Source: an uncultured virus (IMG/VR IMGVR_UViG_3300007538_000001)
Lineage: Duplodnaviria; Heunggongvirae; Uroviricota; Caudoviricetes; Crassvirales
Length of the DNA stretch: 32,540 bases
Virus record (IMG/VR): IMGVR_UViG_3300007538_000001
Direction: 5' to 3' (one strand)
In this document: positions 3,308 through 19,459 of the stretch, in pieces
Layout of the letters: each line of letters opens with the position of its first letter
How positions within the stretch are numbered: position 1 is the first letter of the stretch
The notes under the pieces: generated by a model
Seen by the model: the letters and a program-made list of their open reading frames with translations, nothing else
Told to the model about the DNA's origin: nothing
Databases searched by the model: none
Made by a program: the position numbers and the translations under genes

Positions 3308-3392
3308 TGACTACCTATCCTGCGAGGATTCGAACTCGCGTCTCCAAGTAATGACACCTAGCGTTATGGCCTCTCTACTAAGGGTTATAGTC
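3308..3392 (-). tRNA. Degenerate tRNA-like element (Asp-GTC or Met-CAT like)
   Basis: T-arm GCGAG-TTCGAATC-CTCGC, variable region AGAC, anticodon stem CTAGG/CTTGG with an 8-nt loop TGTCATTA, interrupted acceptor, weak D-arm. Confidence 0.5.
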
Positions 3393-3396
3393 AAGA

Positions 3397-3531
3397 TTAA
3401 TCTCCCCATCTAAATCCAGGAGGAGTTGGCTCATTATTATCATCATCTGGACCATACTTTTCATATAAATATACTATTATACCACCTATAACTACAAGTC
3501 CAAAGTAAATAAGCATTCCTTTTATATTCAT
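3397..3531 (-). CDS. Small membrane peptide (44 aa)
   Basis: Manual: MNIKGMLIYFGLVVIGGIIVYIYMKS... Confidence 0.55.
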   Translation of the reverse strand: MNIKGMLIYFGLVVIGGIIVYLYEKYGPDDDNNEPTPPGFRWGD

Positions 3532-3544
3532 AATTTTGTTTTTT

Positions 3545-3577
3545 AAAAAAAGCCAGCTACTGTACTTCACTGGCTTT
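3545..3577 (-). terminator. Intrinsic terminator-like hairpin
   Basis: AAAGCCAG...CTGGCTTT followed by a T-run on the minus strand. Confidence 0.5.
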
Positions 3578-3651
3578 ATTAACGTGCAAATTTCGTCCGG
3601 GCCTCATCAGGAGGTGATTTTTATAGTCTTCCCGGCTGACTTAATTTCTTT

Positions 3652-3732: not shown

Positions 3733-3783
3733 GTCACCATGTTGGAATCGAACCAACCTAACCACATCTAGAATCATGGTGAC
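3733..3783 (-). ncRNA. 51-nt truncated tRNA-like RNA (His-like, one arm missing)
   Basis: GTCACCAT GATT CTAG-ATGTGG-TTAG GTTGG-TTCGATT-CCAAC ATGGTGAC: perfect 8-bp acceptor and canonical T-arm, with only one small internal hairpin. Confidence 0.7.
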
Positions 3784-3816: not shown

Positions 3817-4347
3817 TTAATCTAATTCCTCATTGTATGCAACTTTTTTGACATTAACTAACTTTTGTTGAAGTGAGAAATAATCTTTATTTAATTCTCT
3901 CTTTACATTATCAAGAGTTTTTTCTATTTCTCTCATCTTCCTTGATACTCTAAGTACCTTCAACTCAGCGAATTGTTGGTCATCCATATCTGTCACTAAC
4001 TTTTCATATATATCATATATGTCAGGTCTATAAGCTTCTATTTCTTCCCAAACATTTGTCATTGCGTGTGTAACTGTTGCATGATCTCTATTAACAAGAT
4101 AAGCAATTGATGAGTATGAGTATTTAGTTAGTTCAATTGCAAGTCTAAAATAAACTGCTCTTAAATAAACTAATTCTCTTTGTCTATTTGTCAAAGTAAT
4201 ATCTACTCCTGCTTCATCAGAAACAGAATTAATAAGATATTGTAACTTCTTCTTCTTTTTAAATAACAATACAGAATGATCTCTATCAACATTATATTTC
4301 TGTTGAAAGTGTCTCTGTATCACTACATCACTTTTGCTTTTTCCCAT
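3817..4347 (-). CDS. Protein with DnaA domain IV-like HTH and C-terminal coiled coil
   Basis: RQRELVYLRAVYFRLAIELTKYSYSSIAYLVNRDHATVTHA matches the DnaA C-terminal signature (R.R..V..R...MYL..ELT..S...IG....RDHTTV.HA); no AAA+ domain. Confidence 0.75.
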   Translation of the reverse strand: MGKSKSDVVIQRHFQQKYNVDRDHSVLLFKKKKKLQYLINSVSDEAGVDITLTNRQRELVYLRAVYFRLAIELTKYSYSSIAYLVNRDHATVTHAMTNVWEEIEAYRPDIYDIYEKLVTDMDDQQFAELKVLRVSRKMREIEKTLDNVKRELNKDYFSLQQKLVNVKKVAYNEELD

Positions 4348-4479
4348 ATTTTTGTTTTTTTAGGCTTCTTTTCTGTCTTAAAGCCTTTGATTATCAATTG
4401 TTTTCTCCCAATCACATCACAAGTATAACTTGATCCAGTGATTACATTGTATTCATGTTTTACCATAGTTTTATTGGTT

Positions 4480-4737
4480 TTAAATTTTTAGTTTTCTTCT
4501 CTCGTAAATATCTACTTTCTTTAATAACTTTATATCTGTTGTTCCGAATTTATGTTTGATTTTTAGTTTCTTTGAATTAACTGTAATTGTTCCATTAACT
4601 AATATCATTTCACATGTTTCTTCTTCATAGTTAATCTTAGTTATAAGAAGTAAATGATCTCTAGATATATAGTTAATAACTGAATCTAATTAATAGTCTA
4701 ATTTAACATGATCTCCTATTTTAAATTTATTATTCAT
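4480..4737 (-). pseudogene. KOW/SH3-like small ORF with an in-frame TAA at codon 16
   Basis: MNNKFKIGDHVKLDY*LDSVINY...YERRKLKI*; TAA at 4690-4692; both ends resemble ORF 7158-7493. Confidence 0.6.
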
Positions 4738-4757
4738 GTTTATGTATATAAAATTAG

Positions 4758-4915
4758 TAGCAACGACAGGAGTCGAACCTGCAATCTCTGAGTTATCAGC
4801 TCAGCGTGATCGGCTTCTCACAATAAACTTCCTTTGTATTTTCATCTGATCAATTACTTCTATACAAACTATAATATTGCTAACATAGCGGCCTTTCCTT
4901 TTTCACCACGTTGCG
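4758..4915 (-). tRNA. tRNA-Ile(GAT)-like gene with ~82-nt insertion in the D-loop
   Basis: Acceptor CGCAACG/CGTTGCT-A, D-stem GTGA/TCAC, anticodon arm CTGAG-CTGATAA-CTCAG, T-arm GCAGG-TTCGACT-CCTGT; total 158 nt. Confidence 0.8.
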
Positions 4916-4924
4916 GTGAAGTTA

Positions 4925-5300
4925 ATTCCTACGCCAACATTATCCCACTTAACAATAGTGTAACTGCCAAGGGCAGGAGACGCAGTAGTTTATAATATTT
5001 ACGTCACTATGAACCAAACTAAGTACCTATCTGCGGTAAGGTTAGCGCGAACCCACTGTAACATTAATGCTCTATAAGTGGCTATCTCAAGGGCCCTAGG
5101 TTTCCTTCCAACCAGGGCTTTCTTTGTTCAAGAACTGAAAAGCTGTGTGATAGTGACGTAAATAATTATACTTGCTTGTTCTAATGTACCCATCTCATTA
5201 GATTCAAATCTTTATTGACGTGTGTCATGGATCTTCATTTACAAGCTTAGAACTTCCTAGCTTTTAAGTGCAAGCACAACAAGCTGTTCTCATAAGACGC
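4925..5300 (-). ncRNA. Tandem candidate structured RNAs (three closed units) upstream of the aberrant tRNA
   Basis: ~390 nt with no ORF; closing stems at 5174-80/5278-84, a perfect 15-bp stem at 4996-5010/5150-5164, and TGCGTC/GGCGTA at about 4930-4984. Confidence 0.6.
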
Positions 5301-5309
5301 ATAGTGAAG

Positions 5310-5540
5310 CTAGGTTAGAAATTTAAATTTTCTTGGTGATCCTGATCCTGGATCAAATTTCCTTGATAATCTCTCAACCATTTTTATACCTAATCTCTTT
5401 GGATTGTATCCATCAGAGAAATCAATATGATAATGGTCTTTTGTTATTTTTGTGACTTGCCCACGTTTATATTCACTTTTGCCGTGGGAGCCAGGCCAGA
5501 AATACTTTGTTTCTATATAGTCTCCTACGGCATATTTCAT
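5310..5540 (-). CDS. Small KOW/SH3-like protein
   Basis: KYAVGDYIE...GQVTKI...YHIDF pattern. Confidence 0.7.
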   Translation of the reverse strand: MKYAVGDYIETKYFWPGSHGKSEYKRGQVTKITKDHYHIDFSDGYNPKRLGIKMVERLSRKFDPGSGSPRKFKFLT

Positions 5541-8159: not shown

Positions 8160-8180
8160 AATTGTTTATTATTAAATTAA

Positions 8181-8386
8181 AAACTCTTTGCCCAAATTTC
8201 AGTGGGATGTTGTCTCGGTACTCCTTCACCCAAGTATTGTGGAGTTTTAATGTTTACAACATATTTACAATAAACACAACCACCTGATAATGGTTTATAA
8301 GTCGTCACATTATAAGTTATTTCAGTTATAACAGGGCGTGCTGTCGCAATTCATTTACTTATCGTTTATCTTTAATCAAAGAGTTT
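8181..8386 (-). ncRNA. Candidate ~205-nt multi-hairpin RNA
   Basis: Perfect 10-bp closing stem AAACTCTTTG/CAAAGAGTTT enclosing about six hairpins. Confidence 0.55.
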
Positions 8387-8506
8387 AATTATAATGTTTA
8401 CATTTTATTTCTTTCCAACTTATTCTTTATATATTTTACTAAGAAATATTCCAATGATAATCATTATTATTATTATTATCATGAAAGCATAAAAGTATTC
8501 CATATT

Positions 8507-8677
8507 TTATATAATTTCAGTTACTATGATTTCAACATCATTGATTTTTTCCTTTCTTCTAATTGTATGGTTTGCTTTTTCACAACCAACAAGTATTATA
8601 AATTTACCTTGGTAATAAAATCCTTTAGGAAAAAATTCTTTTCCATCAATTATTGCTTTGAATTTATATTTATTCAT
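8507..8677 (-). CDS. Small hypothetical protein (56 aa)
   Basis: Manual: MNKYKFKAIIDGKEFFPKGFYYQGK... Confidence 0.6.
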   Translation of the reverse strand: MNKYKFKAIIDGKEFFPKGFYYQGKFIILVGCEKANHTIRRKEKINDVEIIVTEII

Positions 8678-8692
8678 AATATTACATTTTAT

Positions 8693-8854
8693 TTAAATTC
8701 TGTTGTTGTCATTTAGTTCATCATTAGTTTTTTCTTTTCTTTTATTTGTAGAGTATTTTCTATTGTCTCTACAATAAGGACATCCACCATTACACCTACA
8801 AGTCTTATCAAATGCTTTAGATTTAGTGTATGGCTTTTTATATGTTCTACTCAT
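8693..8854 (-). CDS. Small basic Cys-rich protein (53 aa)
   Basis: Manual: MSRTYKKPYTKSKAFDKTCRCNGGCPYCRDNRKY... Confidence 0.65.
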   Translation of the reverse strand: MSRTYKKPYTKSKAFDKTCRCNGGCPYCRDNRKYSTNKRKEKTNDELNDNNRI

Positions 8855-19170: not shown

Positions 19171-19241
19171 CGCGTGAAGGTGTAAAGGTTGCATGGGTGG
19201 TTCATATCCACTACGGGAGGGTTCGAATCCCTGACACGCTA
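19171..19241 (+). tRNA. tRNA-Met(CAT), initiator-like 1:72 mismatch, slightly degenerate
   Basis: GGTGG-TTCATAT-CCACT anticodon arm, AGGG-TTCGAAT-CCCT T-arm, GCGTG/CACGC acceptor; promoter-like TATATTTAC just upstream. Confidence 0.75.
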
Positions 19242-19370: not shown

Positions 19371-19443
19371 GCCCTTATAGCTCAGCTGATAGAGCGTCTT
19401 GTTTGTACCAAGGATGTCGTAGGTTTGAATCCTGCTAAGGGCT
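19371..19443 (+). tRNA. tRNA-Thr(TGT)
   Basis: GCCCTTA/TAAGGGC, GCTC/GAGC, TCTTG-TTTGTAC-CAAGG, GTAGG-TTTGAAT-CCTGC. Confidence 0.85.
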
Positions 19444-19459
19444 CAATAAAGAGAGGAAA

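What the first reader, a model, noticed from the sequence alone, without database searches (positions are those of the whole stretch)
4758..4915. tRNA-Ile(GAT) with an ~82-nt structured domain inserted in the D-loop
Seen: all four tRNA stems are intact, but after the D-loop GG there is an insert closed by GGC/GCC. It contains hairpins GCTATG/TATAGT and TTTGTAT/ATACAAA and a possible loop pairing GCAATA/TATTGT. The acceptor has an initiator-like C1:U72 mismatch. Established: bacterial tRNA introns are group I/II and much longer; short D-loop introns are archaeal BHB type, and I see no clear BHB. Inference: a new intron type, or a tRNA scaffold displaying an extra RNA domain.
Basis: partly seen in the sequence, partly recalled or inferred. 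Interest (0 to 1): 0.85.

Follow-up and report, generated by a model that had tools for sequence, protein, structure and literature searches.

The report
Phage isoleucine tRNA with extra arm
A crAss-like bacteriophage carries a complete isoleucine tRNA gene whose D-loop holds a conserved 85-base rod-shaped insert that standard tRNA finders miss, and its purpose is not yet known.

Summary
On the minus strand, 4915..4758, lies a full tRNA-Ile(GAU) body. It has a 6-bp acceptor plus a C1·U72 mismatch, U8, a 4-bp D stem, A14, A15:U48, G18G19, A21, a canonical anticodon arm and a canonical T arm. An 85-nt insert sits right after G18G19.

ARAGORN finds nothing there. Rfam sees only model positions 10-63.

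Three further sequences from related crAss-like phages keep the insert. Its two main helices show 3 compensated pairs. All 4 substitutions in the closest relative are compensatory. The insert differs from the most distant relative at 10/85 positions, against about 32% at third codon positions.

There is no BHB motif and no group I/II signature. Neither this phage fragment nor the complete relative genome encodes a splicing endonuclease, RtcB or an Rnl2-type ligase.

A second tRNA species (anticodon CAU), in tRNA arrays of two other phages, has a different 77-nt insert at the same D-loop site. It shares the same acceptor and T arm. An uninterrupted initiator-type relative also exists.

My best reading (0.55) is a tRNA-shaped RNA that keeps a self-contained arm at its elbow. 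Excision by an unknown route (0.22) remains open, because no RNA data settle it.

This scan has already noted similar D-loop-insert phage tRNAs on other DNA. I found none in print.

The parts
4758..4915 (-). Whole tRNA-Ile(GAU)-shaped gene with D-loop insert (158 nt; C1=4915, A73=4758)
   Evidence: Sequence read. The Rfam local hit covers 4821..4766. Conserved in L002, L008, L009 (partial) and L010.
4897..4915 (-). 5' half: acceptor 5' strand CGCAACG, U8 G9, D-stem 5' strand GUGA, D-loop start AAAAGG (A14, A15, G18G19)
   Evidence: In the shuffle test, 14 of 5000 shuffles reach the same features. It differs from L008 at 1 of 19 positions: A5 to G, which gives G·U with U68.
4812..4896 (-). 85-nt insert at D-loop position 20 (boundaries uncertain by about 3 nt)
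   Evidence: Length. Identity is 81/85 to L002 and 75/85 to L008. No Rfam family matches. No second copy in the 52-kb record.
4875..4880 (-). Insert helix A, 5' strand GCAAUA (pairs with 4825..4820)
   Evidence: 2 of 6 pairs are compensated: C-G to U-A in L002, and A-U to G-C in L008. RNAalifold recovers the helix independently. Its conserved G·U pair fits only this strand.
4820..4825 (-). Insert helix A, 3' strand UAUUGU. Its last two bases are the 'GU' of the GUGA that Rfam takes as the D stem.
   Evidence: The L002 G-to-A change breaks Rfam's alternative D stem but keeps helix A.
4862..4868 (-). Insert helix B, 5' strand UUUGUAU (pairs with 4839..4833)
   Evidence: The closing pair is U-A (window, L009), C-G (L002) and A-U (L008).
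4833..4839 (-). Insert helix B, 3' strand AUACAAA
4840..4861 (-). 22-nt terminal loop of the insert, containing the palindrome UGAUCA
   Evidence: 4 of 22 positions differ in L008, and UGAUCA is kept. This is the fastest-evolving part of the RNA.
4758..4811 (-). 3' part: G, A21, D-stem 3' strand UCAC, G26, anticodon arm (anticodon GAU = 4797..4795), variable loop, T arm, acceptor 3' strand, A73
   Evidence: 53/54 identical to L008.
4902..4920 (-). Rival leader hairpin UUCACCGC-AAC-GUGGUGAA, which overlaps the acceptor 5' strand and the D-stem 5' strand
   Evidence: RNAalifold prefers it. Both substitutions in it are compatible with it. It may be a precursor conformer.
4916..4988 (-). Conserved non-coding domain directly upstream of the tRNA
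   Evidence: 70/72 identical to L008. No Rfam hit.
5170..5309 (-). Conserved non-coding domain further upstream, starting at the stop codon of the 76-aa gene
   Evidence: 5257..5171 is 85/87 identical to L008. Its closing helix shows an A-U to U-A swap in L003.

Best explanation
This is a real phage gene under selection. It encodes a tRNA-shaped RNA: a complete tRNA-Ile(GAU) body with an extra 85-nt rod-like arm growing out of D-loop position 20, the exposed outer corner of the L-shape.

The arm is most likely kept in the mature RNA. It folds on itself (helix A, helix B, a 22-nt loop). The flanking G18G19 and A21 can therefore still lock the D-loop onto the T-loop, and the tRNA core still forms.

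Inferred steps, not shown:
- The gene is transcribed with the conserved upstream non-coding block.
- The ends are cut by host RNase P and a 3' nuclease, and CCA is added. The phage's normal tRNA-Thr also lacks an encoded CCA.
- The anticodon arm and A73 are kept for IleRS or codon recognition.
- The arm gives the molecule a phage-specific property, such as a handle for a partner or protection of the elbow.

Whether the RNA still decodes AUU/AUC is open. I put it at roughly even odds within this explanation.
For: 1. Canonical body. Every secondary and tertiary signature of a class I tRNA is present once the far 5' half is used. That 5' half is unlikely by chance: 14/5000 shuffles match it.

2. 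The insert is under selection.
- 37 modelled pairs are 97.8% paired. 3 pairs (4 cells) are compensated, all in insert helices A and B. The covariation score was reached by 3/500 shuffles, and slid controls gave 0-1 compensated pairs.
- RNAalifold finds the same two helices unaided.
- All 4 insert substitutions in L002 form 2 compensating pairs.

3. Rates against L008.
- Third codon positions: 54/176 and 27/77.
- Insert: 10/85.
- tRNA body: 2/73.
- Upstream non-coding domains: 2/87 and 2/72.

4. No splicing route was found: no BHB, no group I/II hit, no RtcB, tRNA-intron endonuclease or Rnl2-type ligase in G000 or in the complete 98-kb G001.

5. The same architecture recurs.
- Of 6 viral loci sharing the T arm plus acceptor 3' strand, L133 and L135 are 149-nt tRNA(CAU)-like genes with a different 77-nt insert at the same D-loop site.
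- RNAalifold and the single-sequence MFE of L133 give the full cloverleaf plus rod. 3 pairs of the rod are compensated between the two.
- In L135 the gene sits between two normal tRNAs, with spacers of 11 and 7 nt. Its two halves are therefore one unit.

6. Precedent. Phage T5 is annotated with over-length 'tRNA-like stable RNA with unknown functions'.
Against: - No RNA evidence bears on the mature form. Only contigs from RNA libraries reach the 5' half, and they do not prove transcription.
- The insert alone is not unusually stable: -9, -12.1 and -14 kcal/mol, with z-scores 0.48, -1.01 and -0.34.
- On alignment A2, RNAalifold prefers the leader hairpin to the acceptor and D stems.
- The cloverleaf-plus-rod model lies 4.5 to 11 kcal/mol above the MFE.
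- Only 3 full sequences and 1 partial sequence exist, all close relatives. The tRNA stems never vary, so they are untested by covariation.
- The 1:72 pair is always mismatched.
- From general knowledge (inference): RNase P and ribosomal elements contact the elbow, so a bulky arm there may hinder normal tRNA use.
Confidence: 0.55

Rival explanations
1. The insert is an intervening sequence removed after transcription by a route not yet described for bacteria or phages. Either it is cut and rejoined to give a normal 73-nt tRNA-Ile, or it is cut out without rejoining to leave a two-piece tRNA held together by the acceptor and D stems.
For: - The tRNA body is perfect and more conserved than the insert: 2/73 against 10/85 changes versus L008.
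- The base of the insert is more conserved than its tip. The 16 nt after G19 have 0 changes and the 9 nt before A21 have 1. The terminal loop has 4/22. That pattern is what recognition of splice sites would give.
- Lak phages of Prevotella have conserved tRNA 'enigmatic introns' that Rfam could not classify (PMC6784885, passages read).
- A Bacteroidota control genome has RtcB (control line).
Against: - No bulge-helix-bulge lies at junctions that would restore a normal D-loop.
- No group I/II signature is present, and 85 nt is too short for either.
- The phage encodes no tRNA-intron endonuclease, RtcB or Rnl2-type ligase.
- PF01974 rang only in the 4 archaeal controls, not in the bacterial ones.
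- The rod is broken by large internal loops, so it is a poor RNase III substrate (inference).
Confidence: 0.22
2. The two halves are not one molecule. The hairpin at 4920..4902 ends the upstream non-coding RNA. The rod is a separate small structured RNA. Only a 3' tRNA fragment (D-stem 3' strand to acceptor 3' strand) remains.
For: - Rfam aligns only model positions 10-63.
- RNAalifold chooses the 8-bp leader hairpin.
- Both substitutions in the 5' half fit the hairpin as well as they fit the tRNA: C-1 to U gives U·G, and A5 to G lies in the hairpin loop.
- The upstream block is itself a strongly conserved RNA.
Against: - The 5' half carries acceptor 6/7, D stem 4/4, U8, A14 and GG at the right spacing. 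Only 14/5000 shuffles reach this.
- A15:U48 and A21 are also in place.
- The G-to-A change in L002 destroys the alternative D stem inside the insert while preserving helix A.
- The cloverleaf-plus-rod model is 1.3 to 5.4 kcal/mol better than the hairpin model.
- The L133/L135 family has the same split layout inside tRNA arrays, and there it folds as a cloverleaf by energy alone.
Confidence: 0.1
3. It is a tRNA gene disabled by the insertion of a small hairpin-type mobile element, now drifting. The apparent conservation only reflects the closeness of the relatives.
For: The locus is a hot spot for small insertions:
- a 181-nt inverted-repeat element is present in the window but absent in L002 and L008 and skipped (joint 4988/5170) in one contig each of three laid runs, X18, X24, X7;
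- a block of about 250 nt with a hammerhead-like motif and a small ORF is absent in L002;
- an extra block follows the tRNA in L008 and L009.

Degenerate tRNA-like remnants lie nearby. The 1:72 pair is mismatched.
Against: - Insert divergence from L008 is 10/85, where third codon positions show 81/253.
- 4 of 4 substitutions in L002 and 4 of 10 in L008 are in compensating pairs.
- The anticodon arm has 0/17 changes.
- No other copy of the insert exists in the record.
Confidence: 0.08

Closest known systems
Ordinary phage-encoded tRNA-Ile(GAU) / class I tRNA (Rfam RF00005)
   Same: All four stems, a 7-nt anticodon loop with U33, GAU, A37 and A38, the T-loop, U8-A14, A15-U48, G18G19 and A73. No encoded CCA, as in the phage's own tRNA-Thr.
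   Different: The D-loop is 93 nt instead of 7-11, and the total length is 158 nt. 1:72 is mismatched. ARAGORN does not find it, and the Rfam model matches only in part.
Archaeal non-canonical tRNA introns in the D-loop (bulge-helix-bulge, cut by EndA, joined by RtcB)
   Same: A short intervening sequence inside the D-loop of an otherwise intact tRNA gene.
   Different: There is no BHB at the junctions. The host is bacterial, since the phage is crAss-like. No endonuclease is found in the phage, and PF01974 did not ring in any bacterial control.
'Enigmatic' conserved introns in tRNA genes of Lak megaphages (Devoto et al. 2019, PMC6784885; passages read, Table S6 not read)
   Same: Phages of Bacteroidota-type hosts; conserved inserts in tRNA genes that Rfam could not classify; no known removal route.
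   Different: Those inserts were predicted with tRNAscan in eukaryote mode. By my recollection of that tool, this places them in the anticodon loop. Here the insert is in the D-loop and the anticodon loop is intact.
Phage T5 RNA1 (144 nt) and RNA2 (125 nt), annotated 'tRNA-like stable RNA with unknown functions' (AY543070)
   Same: Over-length RNAs of phages built on a tRNA acceptor/T-arm frame, with function unknown.
   Different: In T5 the extra sequence replaces or expands the anticodon/variable region, and the D arm is normal. Here the anticodon arm is intact and the extra arm is in the D-loop.
Bacterial/phage initiator tRNA-fMet (features from Silva et al. 2006, PMC1635315, passages; T5 tRNAfM)
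   Same: 1:72 mismatch, G2:C71, C3:G70, G12:C23. Acceptor and T arm are identical to the uninterrupted initiator-type tRNA(CAU) of L136.
   Different: U11:A24 instead of A11:U24, A30:U40 instead of G30:C40, and anticodon GAU instead of CAU.

Membership tests
Canonical tRNA (RF00005 cloverleaf) | 7-bp acceptor stem | tested here: inconclusive
   Pairs 2:71 to 7:66 hold in 3/3 sequences (one is A-U to G·U). Pair 1:72 is never formed: C·U, C·U, C·C.
Canonical tRNA (RF00005 cloverleaf) | D stem plus U8, A14, R15:Y48, G18G19, A21 | tested here: met
   GUGA/UCAC 4/4, with U8, A14, A15:U48, GG and A21 all present. They are invariant in 3/3 sequences. 14/5000 shuffles match this.
Canonical tRNA (RF00005 cloverleaf) | 5-bp anticodon stem, 7-nt loop with U33 and purine 37; 5-bp T stem with a GUUCRANY-type loop | tested here: met
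   Rfam alignment. Invariant in 4/4 sequences.
Canonical tRNA (RF00005 cloverleaf) | D-loop of about 7-11 nt and total length of about 72-95 nt; found by tRNA finders | tested here: not met
   D-loop of 93 nt, total 158 nt. ARAGORN finds 0 genes on the intact sequences. The Rfam hit is local, positions 10-63, 31.4 bits.
Canonical tRNA (RF00005 cloverleaf) | Aminoacylation and decoding | not testable with these tools
   Needs charging and translation assays.
Archaeal BHB tRNA intron | Bulge-helix-bulge (3-nt bulge, 4 bp, 3-nt bulge) spanning both splice sites | tested here: not met
   A script scan of both geometries in 3 sequences found no candidate with bulges near G19 and A21.
Archaeal BHB tRNA intron | Splicing endonuclease (PF01974) available | tested here: not met
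   0 of 2 phage records match. The control rings only in the 4 archaea. The phage is crAss-like, and known hosts of that group are Bacteroidota.
Group I / group II self-splicing intron | Match to the intron covariance models; size of about 200 nt or more | tested here: not met
   No such hit at E up to 10 in 4400..5400. The insert is 85 nt.
Bacterial initiator tRNA-fMet | C1, G2, C3, G70, C71 and a 1:72 mismatch (PMC1635315) | tested here: met
   C1, G2, C3, G70 and C71 are present. Position 72 is U or C, not A, but the mismatch is kept.
Bacterial initiator tRNA-fMet | A11:U24, R29G30G31/Y39C40Y41, anticodon CAU | tested here: not met
   U11:A24; G29 A30 G31 / C39 U40 C41; anticodon GAU.
Phage tRNA-like stable RNAs (T5 RNA1/RNA2 type) | tRNA acceptor/T-arm frame, longer than a tRNA, stable in infected cells | tested here: inconclusive
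   Frame and over-length are met. Stability is not testable. The insert position differs from T5.
Lak-phage 'enigmatic' tRNA introns | Conserved, unclassifiable insert in a phage tRNA gene | tested here: met
   The position of the Lak inserts was not checked, because I did not read Table S6.

The most novel reading that the evidence does not exclude
The RNA is a phage-made, initiator-type tRNA that carries an isoleucine anticodon.

Why the features fit:
- The permanent 1:72 mismatch with G2:C71 and C3:G70 would keep it off EF-Tu and allow formylation. These are the main acceptor marks of initiators, and its acceptor and T arm are identical to those of an initiator-type phage tRNA in L136.
- An initiator never has to pass the A site, so an elbow arm would be tolerated.
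- The arm could dock it to phage mRNAs or to the 30S subunit.

The phage would then start some proteins at AUU/AUC with isoleucine. That would be a natural version of the engineered initiator-anticodon mutants (recalled from the literature, not read here). The CAU-anticodon relatives with D-loop arms (L133, L135; A1·C72, A11:U24) would be armed initiators for AUG.
Probability: 0.06. Interest if true: 0.92.

Novelty: new variant of a known kind. Interest (0 to 1): 0.68.

Why it matters
The tRNA shape is among the most fixed in biology. A conserved 85-nt arm at the elbow of an otherwise textbook tRNA is a structural class that textbooks and tRNA finders do not allow for.

If the arm is kept, one of two things follows. 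Either the translation machinery or RNase P tolerates it, or phages make full tRNA look-alikes for another job, such as a decoy, a handle or a specialised initiator. If the arm is removed, bacteria or phages have a tRNA-splicing route that nobody has described.

There is also a practical consequence. Such genes are missed by ARAGORN and only half seen by Rfam, so tRNA counts in crAss-like and other phages are too low. Yutin et al. 2021 (PMC7886860, passages read) already proposed divergent tRNAs that escape detection. They did so to explain recoding phages with no suppressor tRNA found.

The locus also gives a natural design for displaying RNA on a tRNA frame from the D-loop.

Tried and rejected
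- **ARAGORN after in-silico removal of the insert.** It called tRNA-Ile(gat) starting at C1 in 43 of 64 junction choices, for both the window and L002. L008 gave 0 calls only because my anchor matched inside its loop. I reject this as a test. With any upstream 19-mer joined on, ARAGORN still called tRNA-Ile in 108 of 711 real windows and in 15,340 of 142,200 shuffled ones.
- **Sequencing runs** (24 listed; 4 laid, all as contigs). The RNA-library contigs X18 (5244..5170 joined to 4988..4915) and X24 (5199..5170 joined to 4988..4891) do not show transcription. Nothing covers 4890..4802, so they say nothing on splicing. The only joint found (4988/5170, skipping 181 nt) is also in DNA run X7, so it is a DNA polymorphism.
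- **Searches for more relatives.**
  - GenBank phages by DNA: no match. The 3' part alone matched only a Halogranum virus tRNA-Arg.
  - An exact 39-mer found nothing.
  - A mis-spaced pattern found an unrelated tRNA-Ile.
  - The corrected pattern found L002's contig plus an unrelated high-GC phage.
  - Two genome-contig scans found nothing.
  - The 5'-junction 20-mer found only L002's contig.
  - A loose two-anchor pattern gave 119 chance hits. 6 had a T-loop-like motif downstream, and none was tRNA-like.
- **L003**, the relative at 60% protein identity, has no tRNA-Ile at the matching spot.
- **A theta/HDV-like ribozyme after the tRNA in L008/L009:** no hit.
- **A promoter or terminator explanation:** 1 weak promoter-like site and 1 terminator-like site, neither at the feature.
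- **Recoding (TGA=W, TAG=Q):** neither code gives an ORF across the feature on its (minus) strand. The one frame that covers it, 4708..4995 under TGA=W, is on the plus strand and needs 2 recoded stops.
- **Need for AUU/AUC start codons:** the two large ORF-free gaps are filled by small ATG ORFs. The 141-codon open frame at 8291..8716(+) translates to low-complexity sequence; I take it to be the antisense strand of those ORFs.
- **Homology between the two insert families:** MAFFT aligned about 25 AU-rich bases. I do not count this as homology.
- **Literature.** Six full-text searches turned up no description of a bacterial or phage tRNA with a D-loop insert. Subscription-journal papers are not in the library.

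Full report
**What is there.** The window is part of a 52.5-kb IMG/VR virus record. Its large terminase is 43-45% identical over 97-98% of its length to crAss-like phages; records that name a bacterial host name Bacteroides or Flavobacterium. The portal, GroEL-type chaperonin and tail genes fit that group. It is therefore a phage of bacteria, most likely Bacteroidota.

The feature lies on the minus strand between a 76-aa gene (5540..5310) and small ORFs that precede a DnaA-C-like gene (4347..3817). It sits in a stretch of about 700 nt with no ORF of 60 aa or more on the minus strand under code 11, TGA=W or TAG=Q (TGA=W opens two short plus-strand frames). GC is raised there, 0.36-0.45 against about 0.25.

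**The observation.** Read 5' to 3' on the minus strand, 4915..4758 gives:
- CGCAACG (acceptor), UG, GUGA (D stem), AAAAGG;
- 85 nt of insert;
- GA, UCAC, G, CUGAG-CUGAUAA-CUCAG, AGAUU, GCAGG-UUCGACU-CCUGU, CGUUGCU, A.

With this reading every class I tRNA signature is in place: U8, A14, A15 opposite U48, G18G19, A21, G26 opposite A44, U33, A37, G53-C61 and A73. The insert sits exactly at position 20. From general tRNA knowledge, that is the variable, solvent-exposed pocket of the D-loop.

ARAGORN reports only tRNA-Thr in the window. Rfam reports a local hit to model positions 10-63 at 31.4 bits. That hit borrows a GUGA inside the insert, which gives a D-loop without A14 or GG.

The far 5' half is not a chance match. 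Of 5000 dinucleotide shuffles of the 729 nt upstream, 456 held at least 6/7 acceptor pairs plus 4/4 D-stem pairs. Only 14 also had U8, A14 and GG.

An ARAGORN call after deleting the insert in silico (43 of 64 junction choices) is not evidence. The same program accepted 108 of 711 arbitrary 5' halves.

**Relatives.**
- Neighbour-protein and pattern searches gave L002. It lies in a complete 98.4-kb phage with terminal repeats, G001, whose terminase is 98% identical.
- The single metagenome scan gave L008 (the most divergent), L009 (which starts inside the insert) and L010 (identical in the overlapping 600-nt non-coding block, so left out of the alignment).
- L003, at 60% protein identity, has no tRNA-Ile at that spot.
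- All four relatives that have the gene have the insert.

**Selection on the insert.** On the 4-row alignment A2 I named a structure of 37 pairs.
- 97.8% of cells pair.
- 3 pairs (4 cells) carry changes on both sides, all of them in the insert. Helix A (GCAAUA/UAUUGU) has C-G to U-A in L002 and A-U to G-C in L008. The closing pair of helix B (UUUGUAU/AUACAAA) is U-A, C-G or A-U.
- Shuffles reached the covariation score 3 times in 500. Sliding the partners gave 0-1 such pairs.
- RNAalifold found the same two helices without my input.
- All four insert substitutions in L002 belong to these compensating pairs.
- Helix A holds an invariant G·U, which would be A·C on the other strand, so the structure belongs to the tRNA-sense RNA.

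| Region, compared with L008 | Differences |
|---|---|
| Third codon positions, DnaA-C-like gene | 54/176 |
| Third codon positions, 76-aa gene | 27/77 |
| Insert | 10/85 |
| tRNA body | 2/73 |
| Upstream non-coding domain 1 | 2/87 |
| Upstream non-coding domain 2 | 2/72 |

Inside the insert the tip evolves fastest (4/22 in the loop). The base evolves slowest (0/16 and 1/9 in the junction strands).

**Results against a neat picture.**
- The insert alone folds weakly: -9, -12.1 and -14 kcal/mol, with z-scores 0.48, -1.01 and -0.34.
- The whole 164-nt stretch has z = 0.40.
- RNAalifold prefers an 8-bp leader hairpin (4920..4902) over the acceptor and D stems. Both substitutions in that region fit either fold.
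- The cloverleaf-plus-rod model scores -28.6, -28.4 and -30.2 kcal/mol, against MFEs of -33.5, -32.9 and -41.2. It still beats the hairpin model, which scores -25.6, -23.0 and -28.9.
- The tRNA stems never vary, so covariation cannot test them.
- Pair 1:72 is never formed.

**Is it an intron?**
- No bulge-helix-bulge has bulges near G19 and A21 in any of three sequences.
- No group I or II hit appears at E up to 10.
- RtcB, tRNA-intron endonuclease and Rnl2-type RNA ligase are absent from G000 and from the complete G001.
- The endonuclease family rang only in the archaeal controls.

Excision by something unknown cannot be excluded. Lak phages of Prevotella have conserved, unclassified tRNA introns (PMC6784885, passages). 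The sequencing runs did not help. Only contigs were available, none covers the insert's interior, and the single joint is a DNA polymorphism.

**A second family and an uninterrupted relative.** The last viral scan used the T arm plus the acceptor 3' strand and returned 6 loci.
- One is L002's contig.
- L132 (tRNA-Met) and L137 (tRNA-Leu) are ordinary tRNAs.
- L136 is an uninterrupted tRNA(CAU) that ARAGORN calls. It has the same acceptor, including C1·U72 and A73, and the same T arm. Its A11:U24 and G12:C23 are initiator marks according to PMC1635315 (passages).
- L133 and L135 are 149-nt genes with A1·C72, D stem GAAC/GUUC and a D-loop of GAUGG or AAAGG. A 77-nt insert follows at the same site, unrelated in sequence to the one here.

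For L133/L135:
- ARAGORN misses both, and a small Rfam search at E up to 1 lists no tRNA hit over either. A whole-record search gave L133 only an 18.2-bit hit, below the 29-bit cut-off.
- RNAalifold, and the MFE of L133 alone, give the whole cloverleaf plus a three-helix rod. Three rod pairs and one anticodon-stem pair are compensated among the 26 differences.
- Both lie in fragments of phages with 21 tRNA hits each. Those fragments have no match to this terminase.
- In L135 the gene is flanked by normal tRNAs at 11 and 7 nt.

So a rod at D-loop position 20 recurs in at least two tRNA species and two kinds of phage.

**Mechanism.** I commit to a retained arm (0.55).
- Shown: a canonical body, a self-contained insert under selection at the exposed corner, no recognisable splicing apparatus, and recurrence of the design.
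- Inferred: transcription, end processing, CCA addition, folding with an intact elbow, and any function of the arm.

Whether the RNA decodes is open. The anticodon arm is invariant (0/17 changes where about 5 would be expected at the third-position rate), which argues for anticodon use. The 1:72 mismatch and a bulky elbow argue against ordinary EF-Tu/A-site traffic.

That combination prompts the boldest reading, an initiator-type tRNA for AUU/AUC. It meets the acceptor marks but fails A11:U24, G30:C40 and CAU, so I give it 0.06. I saw no need for non-canonical starts in the gene map.

**Comparison and novelty.**
- It works like a tRNA frame displaying an RNA arm.
- It is not a member of the BHB, group I/II or initiator families, because defining features were tested and not met.
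- It is akin to, but differently built from, T5 RNA1/RNA2 and the Lak introns.
- Six literature searches found no D-loop-insert tRNA in bacteria or phages.
- Earlier notes of this scan describe D-loop inserts in tRNA-Phe genes of other crAss-like phages and elbow hairpins in other phage tRNA look-alikes. I did not check these notes. They agree that this is a recurring class.
- This case adds what those notes lacked: relatives with covariation, and a second family sharing the acceptor and T arm.

Noticed in passing
window 4989..5169 (-): A 181-nt element with 17-19-nt terminal inverted repeats and a GC-richer core. It is inserted in the conserved upstream non-coding RNA of the window and L010. 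It is absent in L002 and L008 and in contigs of three runs (joint 4988/5170). There is no second copy in the record.
   Followed up: partly
window 5170..5309 and 4916..4988 (-): A non-coding block upstream of the tRNA that is 97-98% identical to L008 where third codon positions differ by about 32%. It has no Rfam match. Its first domain (GAAGUUCUA...AUGAAGAU...UAGAAC) is also recognisable in the distant relative L003, with an A-U to U-A swap in the closing helix.
   Followed up: partly
window 3567..3642 (-), with ORF 3397..3570 (-): A hammerhead-like match (RAGATH-1 hammerhead, 35.1 bits, E 5e-4, below the 56.3-bit cut-off), with what I recall as the hammerhead core motifs (CUGAUGAG and CGAAA), followed by a 57-aa ORF. 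The whole block of about 250 nt is missing from L002, so it looks like a small inserted cassette.
   Followed up: partly
window 3733..3783 (-): A minihelix of acceptor stem plus T arm, with no D or anticodon arm, followed by an intrinsic-terminator-like hairpin with a U run. It is conserved in L002.
   Followed up: no
window 3319..3383 (-) and 19171..19241 (+): Two weak tRNA-like hits (15.7 and 25.2 bits). The second has a CAU anticodon loop and lies 130 nt upstream of the good tRNA-Thr (19371..19444).
   Followed up: no
window 8180..8395 (-); L003:2548-2780: A non-coding stretch of about 210 nt closed by AAACUCUUUG/CAAAGAGUUU and followed by a U run. It is shared between the window and L003 at different genome positions.
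   Followed up: no
L003:3511-3586; L133:399-547(-); L135:277-425: Enlarged anticodon loops. ARAGORN reports a four-base anticodon 'ctta' in L003. The two D-loop-insert tRNA(CAU) genes have 8-nt anticodon loops, with one extra G compared with L136.
   Followed up: no
L008 (-) just 3' of the tRNA; L009 likewise: An extra block of about 100-170 nt directly after the tRNA 3' end that the window and L002 lack. It gave no Rfam (HDV/theta-like) hit.
   Followed up: partly
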